This document shows positions 11,351-16,893 of a DNA stretch of 64,000 bases, in pieces. The notes beneath the pieces are model-generated. The model saw only the letters and a list, made by a program, of their open reading frames with translations, searched no databases and was not told the origin of the DNA. Source of the stretch: an uncultured Verrucomicrobiales bacterium (GTDB lineage Bacteria; Verrucomicrobiota; Verrucomicrobiia; Verrucomicrobiales; Akkermansiaceae); contig CALKLP010000112.1 of NCBI GenBank assembly GCA_937991965.1, positions 3,608 to 67,607 of the forward strand, in the 5' to 3' direction. A program made the translations under genes and the position numbers. How positions within the stretch are numbered: the first letter of the stretch is position 1; the number at the start of each line of letters is the position of its first letter.

Positions 11351-12928
11351 CTATTGTTTCAACTTAAGTTGACCTCCACCAGAAAGGCGATCTGGAACAA
11401 AAACTAGATTGGCCTGGTGAAGATTTGTTTTTAAGCTTTTGGGGTCATTGGTAATCTCTTGGTGAATAAAGACTTTTCGACCTTGTTCTAGATGATTTTG
11501 AATGAAGTCATCTTGCGCCGCTGTTTCAAGGTCCACGGGAAATACTACAGACTTAAGGTTCGGATAATGGTAGCTAAGATATCGTGGAATACCGCTATGC
11601 TTTTCGTTTCTCAAAACGAGATCACCCGGCGCAGAGTCTCTAAGTTGGGGTTCAAGCGTAGCGTAATAGTAATCGCGATCAAGATTGGAGAGCAAGGAAA
11701 TGCCACCAAGGTAGTTTGTAGCGGTAAAGAATAGATAGAAACCTCCCAGTTTTCCATATGAGGCGCTCCCCATAAAGATGAGATATGGTAGGAGAATCAC
11801 AGGTAGAATCAAGGCCCACATTTCTGGGTTTCCTGGTTCAAACCATAAGATAAACACCGTACACATGAGGCTCCCAATCCATATTGCGGCAGATTCAGGT
11901 TTATCAAATAGAGTGCGAAAGAATGACTTATTTAGCGTCAGTTTTTTTAACTGGGTAAGAAGGATGCCACCTCCAACAATGAACAAGGCGACGAGCATGC
12001 TGATCCAACCCACTTTATGCCAGAGGGGGGTGCCTTGAGCCATGAATCGCTCTTCGTAGAGATACCTCTCTCTAAATAAACCATTACTCAGTAAGTCATA
12101 GACGCGATCAAACCCCATAATTAGGTTCGTGCCAACGACTGAGGCGCCCAAGCCTACGGCGGCCTTTGGGAATGATTTTAGAGTGAGATTTTTGGCGTTT
12201 TCTTTTTTTGTTAGGGGTGTTTCCTTTTTAGATTTTGTAAGGCCTTCTACGATATTGAGATTCTGTTGTTGATAGCGGTCTACGGTATAGAAAGAAGCAA
12301 AGGTTGCCACTCCTAAGGCAGCAACGAAAACGAATAAACTGCGGTATCTCTTAGAGAAAAAATAGTATCCTACTCCGATGACAGCAGTTGGCACAATACA
12401 GATGGTATGGACCAGAGTGGCAGACACCCCAATTATGGCTACAGTGAGAGGCCAAAATAATCCTTTAGAATGACGGCTACTCATTAAGGTCAAAAGAAAT
12501 AGACTCTGCCCGAACCAAGCCATGGCATTGATCTCTGCGGCATGAGTATATCGCCAAAAGTTATATGTTACCGAAAGAATAGCGATGACCAGCAAGGATT
12601 TTCCATGAGTGAGTCCTATCTTAACGAGGAAAAAATAGAGGCAAGCAATACTAGCTAGAGCACAGATCGTCGAAATCCCAATGAGTGTAGATAAGGGTTC
12701 AACAACAGCGAAGACATTTACAAAACTATGAACTTCATCACAAATAATATGATAGAGCTTATGGTTTGGGTGAATGAGTTGTGCCCAGTCATCTGTATCT
12801 CTAACTTGCTGGGCGTATTGATAGGCATCTTCGGTCTCCGTATGGTTATTAATACGCGGTGTTAACAAGATGATCAGTAAGACGCCCCATCCCAGTAAGT
12901 AAAAGGCTCTATTTTTTTTACTTTGCAT
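11351..12928 (-). CDS. polytopic membrane protein, GT-C-like (candidate lipid-linked-sugar glycosyltransferase)
   Basis: 525 aa with roughly a dozen hydrophobic segments. Acidic TETEDAYQYA lies in the first loop after TM1, and about 110 aa at the C-terminus are hydrophilic. Coding is well supported; the GT-C function is inferred from architecture only. Confidence 0.45.
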   Translation of the reverse strand: MQSKKNRAFYLLGWGVLLIILLTPRINNHTETEDAYQYAQQVRDTDDWAQLIHPNHKLYHIICDEVHSFVNVFAVVEPLSTLIGISTICALASIACLYFFLVKIGLTHGKSLLVIAILSVTYNFWRYTHAAEINAMAWFGQSLFLLTLMSSRHSKGLFWPLTVAIIGVSATLVHTICIVPTAVIGVGYYFFSKRYRSLFVFVAALGVATFASFYTVDRYQQQNLNIVEGLTKSKKETPLTKKENAKNLTLKSFPKAAVGLGASVVGTNLIMGFDRVYDLLSNGLFRERYLYEERFMAQGTPLWHKVGWISMLVALFIVGGGILLTQLKKLTLNKSFFRTLFDKPESAAIWIGSLMCTVFILWFEPGNPEMWALILPVILLPYLIFMGSASYGKLGGFYLFFTATNYLGGISLLSNLDRDYYYATLEPQLRDSAPGDLVLRNEKHSGIPRYLSYHYPNLKSVVFPVDLETAAQDDFIQNHLEQGRKVFIHQEITNDPKSLKTNLHQANLVFVPDRLSGGGQLKLKQ

Positions 12929-12931
12929 GAT

Positions 12932-14696: not shown

Positions 14697-16043
14697 TTAT
14701 TTTTGATGATGACATCTCTGCCAGAAGTCGGAGGAAAACTTGGGATCGATAAATTTCTCAAATTCCAAGATCTGAGGGTAGAAAGATGCAAAGTCTGTCA
14801 TCCGGCTATCCTTGGCGGGGTATAAACACCCGCTAGCTTCTTTAACGATCTTATCTAAACGGTTAAACAACTCTTTGACCGGCATCCCATTGTTTGGGAA
14901 ATCAAGAGCGAGTGTAATACCTGGACGGCTAAACGAGAGCATTCCATCAGAGGGGATGTCTCCGAATCGTTTTAAAACGGCGAGAAAGGACCCTTGCTTC
15001 GAATGCGAAATTTCTGACAGCATAGCTCTGGTCGTCTCCAGTGCATGTTCATGAGGAATAACGGATTGATATTGGAAAAATCCTTGTTTTCCATAGAGTT
15101 TATTCCAGTTATTGAGCGTATCTAAGGGGTAGAAAAAGGGATCGTAATGCACTTTTCCTTTAGGCCGCTTTGCTTTCTGTAAGTTGTAATAGAAGGCGTT
15201 AAAGAGTCTTATATTGAAAGGGGAGAGTAAAAGACTGGGAGCATTGAAAGGGATACTGGCCTTCGGGTCAGTATGGACGCTTAGCTCTCCATTGGTGGCG
15301 TGATTGCCCCCCATATAGATTCCACGACCTAAACTCGCGCCTTTTGATAAACAATCAATCCAAGAGACAGAGTGCTCGAACTCTCCATCATGGTTCTGAC
15401 TGATTTCAAAAAACTCATCAATATTACGAAAAGGAATTGATTTCACATCGAGATGAGAGGATGAAATCTTTTTTAGCTGAAGGGTGACATCTATGATGAG
15501 GCCTGTTAGCCCGAGGCCGCCAATGGTAGCGTGAAACCATTCTTTATTGTTCTCCCTTGAGCACACCATGAGGGACCCATCTGACCGTAATAAGGAAAAT
15601 TGAATGACGTTATTACCAAAGGCTCCCGCGACATGATGATTCTTGCCATGCACATCGTTCGCCACAGCTCCGCCGAGCGTAATGAATTTGGTGCCAGGAG
15701 TAGTGGGTAAGAAGCATCCCCTAGGAACGATTACACGCAGAACTTCATCCAGAGAGATTCCTGCCTCCGCTGTCAGTAGTCCCGCATCAGGGTCGAAGGA
15801 GATGAGCTTATTCATTCCTGTGGTCTCGATAACATCTCCTTCAGAATTCAAACATGAGTCTCCGTAACTGCGCCCTAGACCATAAGCTAATATTTTTCCA
15901 TTCTCCTCAGAAAGTGCGTCCTTTAGGCGCTGCGGGTCACTCGTAGATATCGCTCTACTGGGAGCGGCATTAAGGCGCCCCCAAGATTGGAATTGTTTAT
16001 GGTACCACGGTGACATATGTAACGAATTATCTAACAAAGACAA
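14697..16043 (-). CDS. FAD-dependent oxidase, DprE1-like (polyprenyl-P-ribose 2'-oxidase candidate)
   Basis: 448 aa. Colinear with recalled M. tuberculosis DprE1 through WGR, [46 protein letters not shown] and LYPAKDSR (catalytic Lys context). Confidence 0.88.
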   Translation of the reverse strand: [448 protein letters not shown]

Positions 16044-16893
16044 TAACCATAACCATCCACACTGCCATACAGAGGGCGATAATCGGTTTTTTTAAAACAA
16101 GCTTCTCGGGTCGCTCAACGTCTGCCGAGCGATTTGCCTCCAGAGAGTAAGCTACGAGTGCTATTAAAACGGGGATAGCTGTCAGCCAAAACCCATTGGA
16201 ATGAGCTCTAGCCTTATAGCAGTATAGGAGGTAGCACCCAGAAATAAGAATCGATACCACCCAGATAGCTTTTGAGGCATCGATCCGTGCATACCAATTT
16301 AAGGAATTTCTCGTTGCGCCAATGGGAACCTCTTCCTGTCCCAGCTTTTTTAACTCCCCAGCTCTCTTACCCAAAGCAAGAAGTAGAGCTAACAAATACG
16401 TGATAAGCATTAACCACTCAGAGGGGTACAGCGTCAAGGCAAAGGCTCCAGCGGCGACCCTTAGAACAAACCCAAAGGAAATGGAGGCAATATCTAGAAT
16501 GGGAATTTTACGAAGAGAGACGGTATAGAGAGAGTTAATTAAAATGTAGCCTATTAGGCACAGGCTGGTCTTGCCAAAACCGTAAGCAATGGACGTGATT
16601 AATAGCGACGAGACGATACATGATAGGCATAATGCCAAGGCCGCTTTTCCAGAAACCTTACCACTCGCAATCGCTCTGTTTCGCTTGCGAGGATGTTGAC
16701 GATCTTCGTCTCTATTCCATAGATCATTAAAGACATATCCAGCACTTGCGATTAGAGAAAATGTGATTAGTACAGGTAATACTTGTAGCCATTTCTCTAC
16801 CTCAAAGGCTTGTCCAGAAAAGAAAAGAGCGGCCAAACAAAAGCCACTCTTTAACCACTGCTCCGGGCGCAACGCTTTGATGTGATATTTCAT
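16027..16893 (-). CDS. UbiA-family prenyl-phosphate phosphoribosyltransferase-like (DPPR synthase candidate)
   Basis: 288 aa with about 8 TM segments. [25 protein letters not shown] resembles the Rv3806c-type Asp-rich loop (DR-x-HP-x-KR-x-R-x-IA-x-G). Overlaps the DprE1-like gene by 17 nt. Confidence 0.8.
   Translation of the reverse strand: [288 protein letters not shown]

What the first reader, a model, noticed from the sequence alone, without database searches (positions are those of the whole stretch)
11351..16893. Mycobacterial-type polyprenyl-phospho-D-arabinose (DPA) pathway plus a GT-C-like candidate arabinosyltransferase in a non-actinobacterial glycan locus
Seen in sequence: three genes match the three dedicated steps of the Corynebacteriales DPA route. 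(1) A UbiA-family enzyme at 16027..16893 has an Rv3806c-like loop, [25 protein letters not shown]. (2) An FAD oxidase at 14697..16043 is colinear with DprE1 ([38 protein letters not shown]). (3) A short SDR at 12932..13681 has a DprE2-like C-terminus, [11 protein letters not shown]. The genes are translationally coupled (17-nt and 8-nt overlaps), with an AT3 acyltransferase inserted between them. They are followed by a 525-aa polytopic protein with an acidic motif (TETEDAY) in its first loop, which is the architecture of GT-C enzymes that use lipid-linked sugars. I see no PAP2-type phosphatase (the Rv3807c equivalent). Established knowledge: this route is the sole D-Araf donor pathway in mycobacteria. 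Outside that order it is only sporadically reported, for example in D-Araf pilin glycosylation by TfpW in some Pseudomonas aeruginosa strains. Inference: this organism makes a polyprenyl-P-pentofuranose donor and installs it periplasmically on a polysaccharide or protein.
Basis: partly seen in the sequence, partly recalled or inferred. Interest (0 to 1): 0.8.

Follow-up and report, generated by a model that had tools for sequence, protein, structure and literature searches.

The report
Arabinofuranose donor pathway with GT-C transferase
A Gram-negative, uncultured bacterium carries, inside a large exopolysaccharide gene cluster, the three enzymes that mycobacteria use to make a lipid-linked D-arabinose donor plus a membrane glycosyltransferase of a new subfamily to use it; this kind of system is already known outside mycobacteria, so it is a new variant rather than a new principle.

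Summary
On the minus strand, 16893→11351, lie five tightly packed genes. They are a UbiA enzyme that best matches decaprenyl-phosphate phosphoribosyltransferase, a DprE1-like FAD oxidase, an AT3 acyltransferase, a DprE2-like SDR and a 525-aa polytopic protein. With a 69-sequence alignment the 525-aa protein models at pLDDT 93.5. Its 39 best PDB fold matches are all GT-C glycosyltransferases (STT3, ArnT, PglB, ALG9/12, Pmt4, AftA/B/D).

The rarity claim is not. DprE1 homologues at 40–53% identity occur on 65 plasmids from Proteobacteria, Acidobacteria, Bacteroidota and Cyanobacteria. Kelly et al. (PNAS 2024) already describe such pentofuranose systems as widespread.

What is new:
- The GT-C belongs to an unannotated family, with 620 representative clusters and distant TMEM260-like/PMT_2 affinity.
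- Its DprE-linked members form one clade.
- Its unlinked relatives sit in EPS loci, several directly beside exosortase–EpsI.
- No phosphatase or flippase is linked.
- The UbiA motif reads NDxxNxxED.

All function is inferred; no chemistry exists for this uncultured lineage.

The parts
16027..16893 (-). UbiA-family polyprenyl-phosphate 5-phosphoribosyltransferase (PPPRS/DPPRS-like), 288 aa. No fused HAD phosphatase domain. First motif is N56-D57-x-x-N60-x-x-E63-D64; second motif is K176-R177-x-x-E180.
   Evidence: Pfam UbiA 88 bits. NCBIfam PRK12324 DPPR-synthase models 168 bits (cut-offs 207/234), next unrelated subfamily 46 bits. PDB 8j8j Rv3806c E 1e-25, residues 5-283 aligned, 30.5% identity. 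Motif comparison.
14697..16043 (-). DprE1-like FAD-dependent polyprenyl-phospho-ribose 2'-oxidase. 448 aa from TTG 16043, or 439 aa from ATG 16016, which is the publicly called start.
   Evidence: NCBIfam NF053785 DprE1 E 4e-107, 359 bits, profile positions 3-444 of 449 (cut-off 500). PDB 4aut E 4e-74, 37.5% identity. HGKNHH and the AKDSR lysine are conserved, and the benzothiazinone-target Cys is Ala (alignment). Start codon.
13674..14678 (-). AT3-family membrane acyltransferase, 334 aa, inserted between the DprE1-like and DprE2-like genes. It is an optional part of the module.
   Evidence: Pfam Acyl_transf_3 107 bits. Present in L001/L002 (52% identity) and absent in L003. Non-homologous acyltransferases sit in the analogous Chondrinema cluster.
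12932..13681 (-). DprE2-like short-chain dehydrogenase/reductase, 249 aa. The inferred function is 2'-keto reductase completing the ribose-to-arabinose epimerisation.
   Evidence: Pfam adh_short. NCBIfam PRK07102 257.7 bits (cut-off 267) and DprE2 NF053786 144 bits (cut-off 250), both full length. Best PDB relative is DprE2 21gq_C, E 1.5e-20, residues 4-249.
11351..12928 (-). 525-aa GT-C-fold glycosyltransferase of an unannotated family, the candidate polyprenyl-P-Araf-dependent transferase. It has about 13 membrane helices, a first-loop motif NNHTETEDAY, an invariant E369 in WFEPGNPEMW, and a small alpha/beta C-terminal domain (about residues 430-525).
   Evidence: No Pfam, NCBIfam or PDB sequence hit. 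620 representative relatives. 17 of 69 relatives hit TMEM260-like and 8 of 69 hit PMT_2. AF2 pLDDT 93.5, pTM 0.93. The 39 best Foldseek PDB hits are all GT-C, E down to 8e-6, TM 0.42-0.49. Conserved columns.
9292..11334 (-). Context: Wzy_C (O-antigen ligase/polymerase-like) membrane protein, 680 aa. Its long C-terminal part is unassigned here; the L006 homologue carries only a faint TPR_12 hit. It is the conserved downstream neighbour of the GT-C.
   Evidence: Pfam Wzy_C 61 bits. Neighbour conserved in L003 and L006, where TPR_12 is faint.
7828..9219 (-). Context: initiating polyprenyl-phosphate glycosylphosphotransferase of the EPS locus.
   Evidence: Pfam Bac_transf 221 bits. NCBIfam TIGR03025 EPS_sugtrans 350.8 bits, above the 295.55 cut-off.
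16896..18532 (-). Context: exosortase (17591-18532) and EpsI (16896-17585), immediately upstream of the UbiA gene and on the same strand.
   Evidence: Pfam Exosortase_EpsH 114.6 bits and DUF3485/EpsI 38.9 bits. NCBIfam 8TM_EpsH and XrtA models. Synteny in L001 and L003.

Best explanation
The five-gene block makes a polyprenyl-phosphate-linked D-arabinofuranose donor on the cytoplasmic face of the inner membrane. It then spends that donor in the periplasm.

Proposed steps:
1. [quoted passage not shown]
2. An unlinked phosphatase removes the 5-phosphate.
3. The DprE1-like flavoenzyme oxidises C2' and the DprE2-like SDR reduces it. This gives polyprenyl-P-D-Araf.
4. The lipid is flipped by an unlinked flippase, or possibly by the GT-C itself.
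5. The 525-aa GT-C transfers Araf to an acceptor. The near-invariant acidic residue in its first periplasmic loop (D34) is the likely catalytic base.
6. The most likely acceptor is the sulfated, heptose-containing exopolysaccharide built by the surrounding Wzx/Wzy locus, as a side-chain decoration added after polymerisation. The AT3 enzyme probably O-acylates the same glycan.

What is shown here: homology, fold, gene linkage and clade structure. What is inferred: the sugar identity, the lipid, the topology, the acceptor and every catalytic step.
For: - **Best matches.** The best and near-full-length matches of the three soluble or membrane enzymes are to DPPRS, DprE1 and DprE2.
- **Identity levels.** The UbiA enzyme is 30.5% identical to Rv3806c. 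The DprE1-like enzyme is 37.5% identical to M. smegmatis DprE1. This range matches the biochemically proven Citrobacter PPPRS, which is 31% identical to Mtb DPPRS (PMC11127046).
- **Catalytic residues.** The DprE1 catalytic lysine and the HGKNHH motif are conserved.
- **GT-C fold.** The fold is predicted at high confidence.
- **Family affinity.** Relatives match the Pfam GT-C families TMEM260-like and PMT_2.
- **Spacing.** The genes are separated by 20 nt or less.
- **Conserved linkage.** GT-C adjacency with DprE1/DprE2 is kept in L001, L002, L003, L006, L015 (UbiA on the other strand) and L017.
- **Clade structure.** All linked members fall in one NJ clade and all unlinked members fall outside it.
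- **Analogous cluster.** The same architecture, UbiA-DprE1-DprE2-acyltransferase-GT-C, occurs on a Chondrinema litorale plasmid with a different GT-C subfamily.
- **Locus type.** The surroundings are an EPS locus with an initiating transferase, Wzy-like proteins, GT4/WecG transferases and sulfotransferases.
- **Precedent.** Kelly et al. 2024 describe PPPRS + flippase + GT-C systems with DprE1/E2 homologues in loci for Araf-containing glycans.
Against: - All three enzymes score below NCBIfam's equivalog cut-offs: 168 against 207, 359 against 500, and 144 against 250.
- The central Asp of the UbiA N-D-x-x-D-x-x-x-D motif is Asn in this lineage. In Citrobacter ORF15 the equivalent D251A mutant lost in-vitro activity but kept some in-vivo activity.
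- No phosphatase (PAP2 or PRP-type HAD) and no MATE, SMR or GtrA flippase is encoded in the 64-kb window. The only HAD domain is GmhB-like and belongs to a heptose pathway.
- Among the 66 metagenome loci fetched with more distant members of the GT-C family, none had a DprE or UbiA gene detectable within the held flanks, many of which are short. The fold and family alone therefore do not specify an Araf donor.
- No glycan chemistry exists for this uncultured organism.
Confidence: 0.65

Rival explanations
1. The donor pathway is the same, but the acceptor is protein. In this reading the GT-C O-arabinosylates PEP-CTERM proteins, or other secreted Ser/Thr-rich proteins, as they are handled by the adjacent exosortase/EpsI. 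This would parallel TfpW modifying pilins with D-Araf in P. aeruginosa.
For: - The module starts 3 nt after EpsI and lies on the same strand as the exosortase.
- More distant members of the same GT-C family sit directly beside exosortase-EpsI in L023, L025, L026, L030 and L038, and within 3 kb in L007/L008.
- The family's only Pfam affinities are to protein O-mannosyltransferase families, TMEM260-like and PMT_2 (TMEM260 function in PMC10214176).
- The best fold matches include the oligosaccharyltransferases STT3, AglB and PglB.
[quoted passage not shown] The window's own PEP-CTERM protein is Thr/Ser/Gly-rich.
- TfpW is a precedent for protein D-arabinofuranosylation.
Against: - Exosortases normally lie in EPS loci, so adjacency to any EPS gene is expected to some degree. 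Only about 6 of the 66 metagenome loci show it.
- ArnT, a lipid A transferase, is an equally good fold match, and PMT_2 also covers non-protein transferases.
- All characterised DprE-linked systems in polysaccharide loci decorate polysaccharides.
- The PEP-CTERM gene in the window is 40 kb away.
Confidence: 0.18
2. The 525-aa GT-C does not use the DprE-derived donor. It would be a general EPS/exosortase-locus GT-C that uses another lipid-linked sugar, or an undecaprenyl-PP-linked oligosaccharide, and is only a neighbour of the DPA-like genes. The product of those genes would be consumed by another, unlinked enzyme.
For: No member of the family outside the P0001-P0020 clade whose context was held shows DprE or UbiA genes within the available flanks. 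L030 shows GT4-epimerase-WecG-GT-C-exosortase with no lipid-sugar synthase in view.
Against: - Adjacency to the DprE2-like gene is kept across members only 25-32% identical, and across three different gene orders.
- The linked members are monophyletic in the NJ tree.
- No other GT-C candidate lies in the module.
- The SDR and GT-C genes are 3 nt apart.
Confidence: 0.1
3. The pathway yields a pentofuranose other than D-arabinose, or is impaired. Either the DprE1/DprE2-like pair has another substrate or stereochemical outcome, or the Asn-substituted UbiA enzyme uses a donor other than PRPP.
For: Scores are below the equivalog cut-offs. The metal-binding motif is non-canonical. Other systems add extra epimerases to diversify the pentose, for example the Rhizobium tumorigenes cluster with two further oxidoreductases and the Citrobacter O2 Xylf epimerase.
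Against: Only the DprE1/DprE2 pair is present here. The catalytic lysine and flavin-site motifs are conserved. The Asn variant is conserved at 48-50% identity across L001 and L003, which argues for a functional enzyme. Loci of Araf-containing glycans carry exactly DprE1/E2 homologues.
Confidence: 0.07

Closest known systems
Mycobacterial/corynebacterial decaprenyl-phospho-arabinose pathway (Rv3806c UbiA, Rv3807c, DprE1, DprE2, Rv3789; Emb/Aft GT-C arabinosyltransferases)
   Same: The same three enzyme families act in the same logical order. The DprE1 and DprE2 matches are full length, and Rv3806c is the only solved UbiA relative found. The user of the donor is a GT-C enzyme.
   Different: - The organism is an LPS-bearing diderm, with LptF/G, KdsB-type and lipid A acyltransferase genes in the window.
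- There is no PAP2 phosphatase and no SMR flippase.
- The GT-C shows no sequence relation to Emb/Aft families. AftA, AftB, AftD and EmbA are weaker fold matches than STT3 and ArnT.
- The DprE1-like enzyme has Ala at the benzothiazinone-target Cys.
- The module sits in a Wzx/Wzy EPS locus, not in a cell-wall core locus.
Pseudomonas aeruginosa Pa5196/PA7 pilin D-Araf system (PsPA7_6246-6249 plus TfpW)
   Same: A Gram-negative DPA-like route (PPPRS, DprE1, DprE2) feeds a single GT-C. A dedicated flippase is dispensable in PAO1, where ArnE/F can substitute (preprint 10.1101/2020.04.19.049825).
   Different: That system has a GtrA-like gene and modifies pilin. Here there is no GtrA-like gene and no pilin gene in the window. 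The context is EPS and exosortase. The TfpW sequence was not on hand for a direct comparison.
Three-component pentofuranose side-chain systems (Citrobacter youngae O1/O2: ORF15 PRP-PPPRS, ORF14 transporter, ORF12 GT136; DprE1/E2 homologues in Araf producers) - Kelly et al., PNAS 2024, PMC11127046
   Same: The concept is the same. A PRPP-dependent UbiA-type synthase, optional epimerases and periplasmic GT-C decoration of a polysaccharide all lie inside a polysaccharide locus. [quoted passage not shown]
   Different: Here the synthase has no fused HAD phosphatase and no MATE or SMR transporter is linked. The GT-C has no carbohydrate-binding module of the ORF12 type. It belongs to a family whose detectable affinities are TMEM260-like and PMT_2. 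GT136 membership could not be tested directly.
Uncharacterised cluster on Chondrinema litorale plasmid NZ_CP111066.1 (Bacteroidota)
   Same: The gene order UbiA-DprE1-DprE2-acyltransferase-GT-C is almost the same module. A DUF2723 protein 5 kb away is a 23% relative of the window's GT-C.
   Different: The GT-C adjacent to the module there is a PMT_2/'GT39' protein with no detectable profile similarity to the window's family. The acyltransferases are not detectably homologous. That cluster is plasmid-borne.
TMEM260-like (PF11028, formerly DUF2723), PMT_2 (PF13231) and ArnT-type GT-C enzymes
   Same: The predicted fold is shared, with ArnT at TM 0.47-0.49. A quarter of the family's members reach TMEM260-like and an eighth reach PMT_2. 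The first loop after TM1 is acidic.
   Different: The window protein itself matches neither Pfam model at E <= 0.01. Those enzymes use Dol-P-Man or Und-P-Ara4N, not a DprE-derived donor.

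Membership tests
Polyprenyl-phosphate 5-phosphoribosyltransferase (DPPRS/PPPRS, Rv3806c type) | Closer to DPPRS than to any other UbiA subfamily, and reaches the curated equivalog score | tested here: inconclusive
   DPPRS models are clearly the best, at 168 bits against 46 bits for heme O synthase. They fall below the cut-offs of 207/234. PDB 8j8j E 1e-25.
Polyprenyl-phosphate 5-phosphoribosyltransferase (DPPRS/PPPRS, Rv3806c type) | Cytoplasmic-loop motif N-D-x-x-D-x-x-x-D, plus a second motif R-x-x-E | tested here: not met
   The first motif reads N56-D57-L-W-N60-R-D-E63-D64, so the central Asp is Asn. The same holds in L001 and L003. Chondrinema, Rhizobium and Mtb keep the Asp. 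The second motif, K176-R177-A-G-E180, is present. The equivalent D251A in ORF15 retained partial in-vivo activity.
Polyprenyl-phosphate 5-phosphoribosyltransferase (DPPRS/PPPRS, Rv3806c type) | PRPP-dependent transfer of ribose-5-P to polyprenyl phosphate | not testable with these tools
   Needs a membrane assay with PRPP and farnesyl or undecaprenyl phosphate.
DprE1 (polyprenyl-phospho-ribose 2'-oxidase) | Full-length colinearity with DprE1 and a curated equivalog score | tested here: inconclusive
   NF053785 covers profile positions 3-444 of 449, E 4e-107, 359 bits. The cut-off is 500. PDB DprE1 E 4e-74 over residues 12-442.
DprE1 (polyprenyl-phospho-ribose 2'-oxidase) | Conserved active-site lysine (Mtb K418, from my own knowledge of the family) and the HGKNHH flavin-site motif | tested here: met
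   The alignment shows LYPAKDSR against LYTAKDSR, and DVHGKNHH against DIHGKNHH. The benzothiazinone-target Cys is Ala; that residue is not needed for catalysis.
DprE1 (polyprenyl-phospho-ribose 2'-oxidase) | Encoded with a DprE2-type reductase and a PPPRS | tested here: met
   Also true in L001, L003, L013, L014 and L015.
DprE2 (2'-keto-pentofuranose reductase) | SDR with a full-length match to DprE2 and a curated equivalog score | tested here: inconclusive
   NF053786 gives 144 bits against a cut-off of 250. The generic model PRK07102 scores higher, 257.7 against a cut-off of 267. DprE2 is the best solved relative, E 1.5e-20, eight orders of magnitude ahead of the next.
GT-C fold glycosyltransferases | Polytopic membrane domain with a GT-C fold | tested here: met
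   AF2 pLDDT 93.5, pTM 0.93. The 39 best Foldseek PDB hits are all GT-C, at probability 0.84 or more (1.00 for the first 30). Non-GT-C transporters follow at TM 0.11-0.15. The first, weaker model gave the same answer.
GT-C fold glycosyltransferases | Conserved acidic residue in the first extracytoplasmic loop after TM1 | tested here: met
   D34 and N28 are at least 90% conserved across 69 relatives within the motif NHTEAEDAY. The periplasmic location is inferred from the N-terminal KKNR and the helix order. It was not measured.
TMEM260-like (PF11028) / PMT_2 (PF13231) | Match to the Pfam model | tested here: not met
   The window protein has no Pfam hit at E <= 0.01. 17 of 69 relatives hit TMEM260-like and 8 of 69 hit PMT_2. 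The relation is therefore to the superfamily, not to either family.
Three-component pentofuranose systems / GT136 (Kelly et al. 2024) | PPPRS, a dedicated MATE or SMR/GtrA transporter and a GT-C in one locus | tested here: not met
   PPPRS and GT-C are present. No transporter of those families was found among the ORFs scanned across the 64-kb window. No gap longer than 20 nt exists inside the module.
Three-component pentofuranose systems / GT136 (Kelly et al. 2024) | GT-C homologous to C. youngae ORF12 (GT136) | not testable with these tools
The listed phage record BK026208.1 is not in the phage collection. The 707-aa protein of a Rhizobium system showed no profile similarity, but its family is unknown.
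Emb/Aft arabinosyltransferases | Sequence membership in the mycobacterial arabinosyltransferase families | tested here: not met
   No Pfam or PDB sequence match, either with the single protein or with the 69-sequence profile. Only a fold-level resemblance was found: AftB E 1.2e-2, AftD 3e-2, AftA 5e-2, EmbA 0.34.

The most novel reading that the evidence does not exclude
The 525-aa protein may represent a GT-C family that belongs functionally to the exosortase/PEP-CTERM system, as the long-postulated enzyme that glycosylates PEP-CTERM proteins or links them to exopolysaccharide. In this lineage the family would have recruited a mycobacterial-type lipid-arabinose donor. The cell would then decorate its sorted surface proteins with D-arabinofuranose, in a TfpW-like chemistry set in a completely different secretion context.
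Probability: 0.15. Interest if true: 0.7.

Novelty: new variant of a known kind. Interest (0 to 1): 0.38.

Why it matters
If the chemistry is confirmed, it would extend lipid-linked D-arabinofuranose glycosylation to an uncultured lineage of LPS-bearing bacteria that make sulfated exopolysaccharides. It would also assign a first function to one clade of a sizeable unannotated GT-C family (620 representative clusters), and add a new enzyme to the glycoengineering toolbox for pentofuranose addition.

The recurrent placement of this GT-C family beside exosortase–EpsI gives a concrete candidate to test in the still unresolved biochemistry of PEP-CTERM protein sorting.

It does not change the general picture. 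DprE1/DprE2/UbiA modules outside Actinobacteria are already documented and are common.

Tried and rejected
1. **Direct sequence searches with the 525-aa protein.** Pfam, NCBIfam and PDB gave nothing, whether queried with the single sequence or with the 69-sequence profile. Only structure prediction and family-wide Pfam scanning were informative.
2. **First structure model.** The 7-sequence alignment gave pLDDT 71.8, with an unreliable first loop. I replaced it with the 69-sequence model.
3. **GTDB genome scan with the close-family alignment.** It found only one remote relative, L004, at 26% identity and without DprE genes. The organism could not be named. Cluster look-ups returned no names and Rfam found no rRNA or other RNA. 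The taxon stays unassigned beyond 'LPS-bearing diderm'. A PVC-group affiliation is only a guess from gene content (DUF1501 neighbour in L006, sulfotransferases).
4. **Search for the missing phosphatase and flippase.** I ran Pfam on every non-overlapping ORF of at least about 80–120 aa, plus the gaps. The only HAD domain is GmhB-like. A 115-aa four-helix ORF at 61143–61490 has no family.
5. **Profile comparison with other systems.** The window's GT-C family showed no similarity to the Chondrinema 'GT39' protein or to the Rhizobium 707-aa protein. The two acyltransferases showed none either.
6. **Attempt to fetch a published GT136-type system.** BK026208.1 is not in the phage collection. The one phage hit to the UbiA protein is an unannotated 6.6-kb fragment.
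7. **Idea considered and rejected.** The adjacent PRPP synthetase gene could be part of the module. It more likely belongs to the common prs–L25–pth housekeeping cluster.

Full report
**1. What is there**

Between 16893 and 11351 on the minus strand lie five ORFs with almost no spacing:
- a 288-aa UbiA protein (16027–16893)
- a 448/439-aa FAD protein (14697–16043, or 14697–16016)
- a 334-aa AT3 acyltransferase (13674–14678)
- a 249-aa SDR (12932–13681)
- a 525-aa polytopic protein (11351–12928)

One detail needs correcting. The 17-nt UbiA/FAD overlap exists only if the FAD gene starts at TTG 16043. The sequence deposited in public collections starts at ATG 16016. Only that version is found by exact look-up, and it leaves a 10-nt spacer. 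The AT3/SDR 8-nt overlap is real.

**2. The three donor-pathway enzymes**

*FAD protein.* It matches NCBIfam's DprE1 model over profile positions 3–444 of 449 (E 4e-107, 359 bits). The next family scores 58 bits. It matches solved DprE1 structures at E 4e-74, with 37.5% identity to the M. smegmatis enzyme. The HGKNHH motif and the AKDSR lysine are conserved. The cysteine targeted by benzothiazinones is alanine.

*SDR.* Its best solved relative is DprE2 (E 1.5e-20, full length; the next hit is 8e-13). In NCBIfam it scores 144 bits on the DprE2 model and 257.7 bits on the generic model PRK07102.

*UbiA protein.* It scores 168 bits on the decaprenyl-phosphate phosphoribosyltransferase models, against 46 bits on heme O synthase. 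It aligns end to end with the Rv3806c structure (E 1e-25, 30.5% identity). That is the identity range of the biochemically proven Citrobacter PPPRS (31% to the Mtb enzyme; PMC11127046).

Two caveats apply:
- All three scores lie below NCBIfam's equivalog cut-offs.
- In this lineage the first Asp-rich motif reads N-D-x-x-N-x-x-E-D instead of N-D-x-x-D-x-x-x-D. The corresponding D251A mutant of ORF15 was inactive in vitro but partly active in vivo.

**3. The 525-aa protein**

It has no Pfam, NCBIfam or PDB sequence match. Only six close relatives appeared in a 5.8-billion-protein search. A profile search of 1.84 billion cluster representatives found 620 relatives at E ≤ 1e-3.

In a 69-sequence alignment the near-invariant positions are N28 and D34 (first loop, NHTEAEDAY), H56, Y122/W125/Y127/E132, H174, E292/E293, E369/W371 (EPGNPExW), N405, D419, D436 and Y453. 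Seventeen of the 69 members reach Pfam TMEM260-like and eight reach PMT_2, both GT-C families. The window protein itself reaches neither.

With that alignment AlphaFold2 gives pLDDT 93.5 and pTM 0.93. The 39 best Foldseek matches in the PDB are all GT-C enzymes: STT3, ArnT, AglB, PglB, ALG9/ALG12, Pmt4, AftB, AftD, AftA, PimE and ALG6. TM-scores reach 0.49, and unrelated transporters follow at TM 0.11–0.15.

The helix order and charge distribution fit a 13-helix protein with the N-terminus in the cytoplasm and the C-terminus outside, carrying a small periplasmic α/β C-terminal domain. This topology is an inference, because I had no access to the model coordinates.

**4. Linkage**

The order exosortase–EpsI–UbiA–DprE1–(AT3)–DprE2–GT-C–Wzy_C–initiating transferase–prs recurs in other contigs:
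- Metagenome contigs L001/L002 and L003 show it. The AT3 gene is absent in L003.
- L006 shows it in part, with a GT-C only 29% identical.
- In L015 the GT-C is 32% identical. The order is DprE1–DprE2–GT-C, with UbiA on the opposite strand.
- In L017 the GT-C is 25% identical, and the fragment upstream of it is the C-terminus of a DprE2-like SDR.

In an NJ tree of the 69 sequences (not bootstrapped), all six members with known DprE linkage fall in one clade (P0001–P0020). The four members known to lack it fall outside.

A metagenome scan fetched 66 further loci with 21–33% relatives. None had a DprE1, SDR or UbiA homologue detectable within the held flanks, many of which are short. About a dozen carry Bac_transf or Wzy_C genes. 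Five have an exosortase (four of them also EpsI) right beside the GT-C, and a sixth has EpsI alone. L007/L008 add another case.

The window's protein thus belongs to a DprE-linked subfamily of a larger GT-C family found in EPS and exosortase loci.

**5. Surroundings**

From about 7.8 to 51 kb the window is one minus-strand EPS locus. It holds:
- an initiating glycosylphosphotransferase that passes TIGR03025
- two Wzy_C proteins and a Wzx-like 509-aa protein
- GT4 and WecG transferases
- three AT3 enzymes and one MBOAT
- several sulfotransferases, with CysN/CysD/CysC for PAPS
- a GDP-heptose pathway (GmhA, HddA, an HddC–GmhB fusion)
- sugar epimerases and an aminotransferase

LptF/G, a KdsB-type cytidylyltransferase and a lipid A acyltransferase show an LPS-bearing diderm, so the organism is not an actinobacterium. 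A Thr/Ser/Gly-rich PEP-CTERM protein lies at 58700–59401.

I found no PAP2 or PRP-type phosphatase and no MATE, SMR or GtrA flippase among the ORFs scanned across the window. This need not be fatal. In P. aeruginosa the GtrA-like gene is dispensable because ArnE/F can substitute. The organism itself could not be named.

**6. Comparison with what is known**

A tblastn of the DprE1-like protein against plasmids found 65 records at 40–53% identity. They come from Rhizobium, Agrobacterium, Burkholderia, Rhodobacteraceae, Granulicella (Acidobacteriota), Chondrinema and Flammeovirgaceae (Bacteroidota) and Kovacikia (Cyanobacteria). These enzymes are closer to the window's protein than mycobacterial DprE1 is.

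The Chondrinema plasmid carries UbiA–DprE1–DprE2–acyltransferase–GT-C, with further GT-Cs nearby. One of these is a DUF2723 protein that is a 23% relative of the window's GT-C. The GT-C adjacent to that module is of another subfamily.

Kelly et al. (PNAS 2024, PMC11127046) proved the PPPRS and GT-C steps for Citrobacter. [quoted passage not shown] The P. aeruginosa TfpW system is a further precedent.

No paper in the library links DprE1 with exosortase.

**7. Verdict**

As a class, the system is already known.

The new features are these:
- The GT-C is a previously unannotated subfamily, not Emb/Aft by sequence. GT136 and TfpW membership could not be tested.
- No phosphatase or flippase is linked.
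- The UbiA metal motif carries an Asn substitution.
- The module is wedged between exosortase–EpsI and a Wzy_C protein.

The most likely function is periplasmic addition of D-Araf to the locus's exopolysaccharide (confidence about 0.65 for the pathway and GT-C coupling). Arabinosylation of PEP-CTERM proteins is the more novel alternative (about 0.15–0.2). Everything beyond homology, fold and linkage is inference. Section 'decisive next steps' lists the assays that would settle it.

Noticed in passing
window 7828-51207 (minus strand): This is one very large exopolysaccharide locus. It holds several sulfotransferases (31441-32292, 35716-36438, 37527-38222), PAPS-synthesis genes CysC/CysD/CysN (46537-49391), three AT3 acyltransferases, one MBOAT, GT4 and WecG transferases and two Wzy_C proteins. 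This predicts a sulfated, heavily acylated polysaccharide.
   Followed up: partly
window 18563-23078: A GDP-D-glycero-D-manno-heptose-type pathway lies next to the exosortase: GmhA-like isomerase, an SDR epimerase/dehydratase, an HddA-like kinase, and an HddC-like nucleotidyltransferase fused to a GmhB-like HAD phosphatase. This HAD is the only phosphatase domain near the module and could in principle moonlight on polyprenyl-P-ribose-5-P.
   Followed up: partly
window 16027-16893, residues 56-64; also L001 6032-6877 and L003 1398-2291: The first Asp-rich motif of the UbiA enzyme reads N-D-x-x-N-x-x-E-D in this lineage. Chondrinema, Rhizobium and mycobacteria have the canonical N-D-x-x-D-x-x-x-D. 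The variant is conserved across proteins about 48-50% identical, so it is probably functional.
   Followed up: partly
window 14697-16043 (alignment with M. smegmatis DprE1): The cysteine that benzothiazinones attack in mycobacterial DprE1 is alanine here (GITLALDFP against GWNVCVDFP). The enzyme should be naturally insensitive to that drug class.
   Followed up: no
L023, L025, L026, L030, L038, L070, L007/L008: Distant relatives of the 525-aa GT-C (21-28% identity) that lack DprE genes sit directly beside exosortase and EpsI genes, at the end of EPS loci. This suggests a family-level link to the PEP-CTERM/exosortase system.
   Followed up: partly
window 6811-7755: The PRPP synthetase gene, which makes the substrate of the UbiA enzyme, lies just beyond the EPS initiating transferase. 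The synteny is kept in L003 and L006. It is most likely only the common prs-L25-pth-S6-ssb housekeeping cluster.
   Followed up: no
window 61143-61490 (minus strand): An unannotated 115-aa ORF with four hydrophobic helices and no Pfam match. It has the size and shape of an SMR/GtrA-type small membrane protein, but lies 45 kb from the module.
   Followed up: partly
window 56026-59401: A Ser/Thr protein kinase (662 aa), an ECF-type sigma factor and a divergently transcribed Thr/Ser/Gly-rich PEP-CTERM protein (58700-59401) form a possible regulatory/substrate unit of the exosortase system.
   Followed up: no
window 43042-43512 and GC profile at 26-32 kb and 36-40 kb: A Uma2-family nuclease gene and two low-GC stretches (about 38-40%, against 45-50% elsewhere) lie inside the EPS locus. 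This hints at mosaic, horizontally exchanged segments.
   Followed up: no
L013 (Chondrinema litorale plasmid NZ_CP111066.1) and L014 (Rhizobium tumorigenes plasmid NZ_CP117262.1): Both are elaborate uncharacterised DprE-type clusters. Chondrinema has three to four GT-C genes and two acyltransferases around UbiA-DprE1-DprE2. Rhizobium has a HAD-fused UbiA, two extra oxidoreductases, GtrA and a 707-aa unassigned membrane protein.
   Followed up: partly
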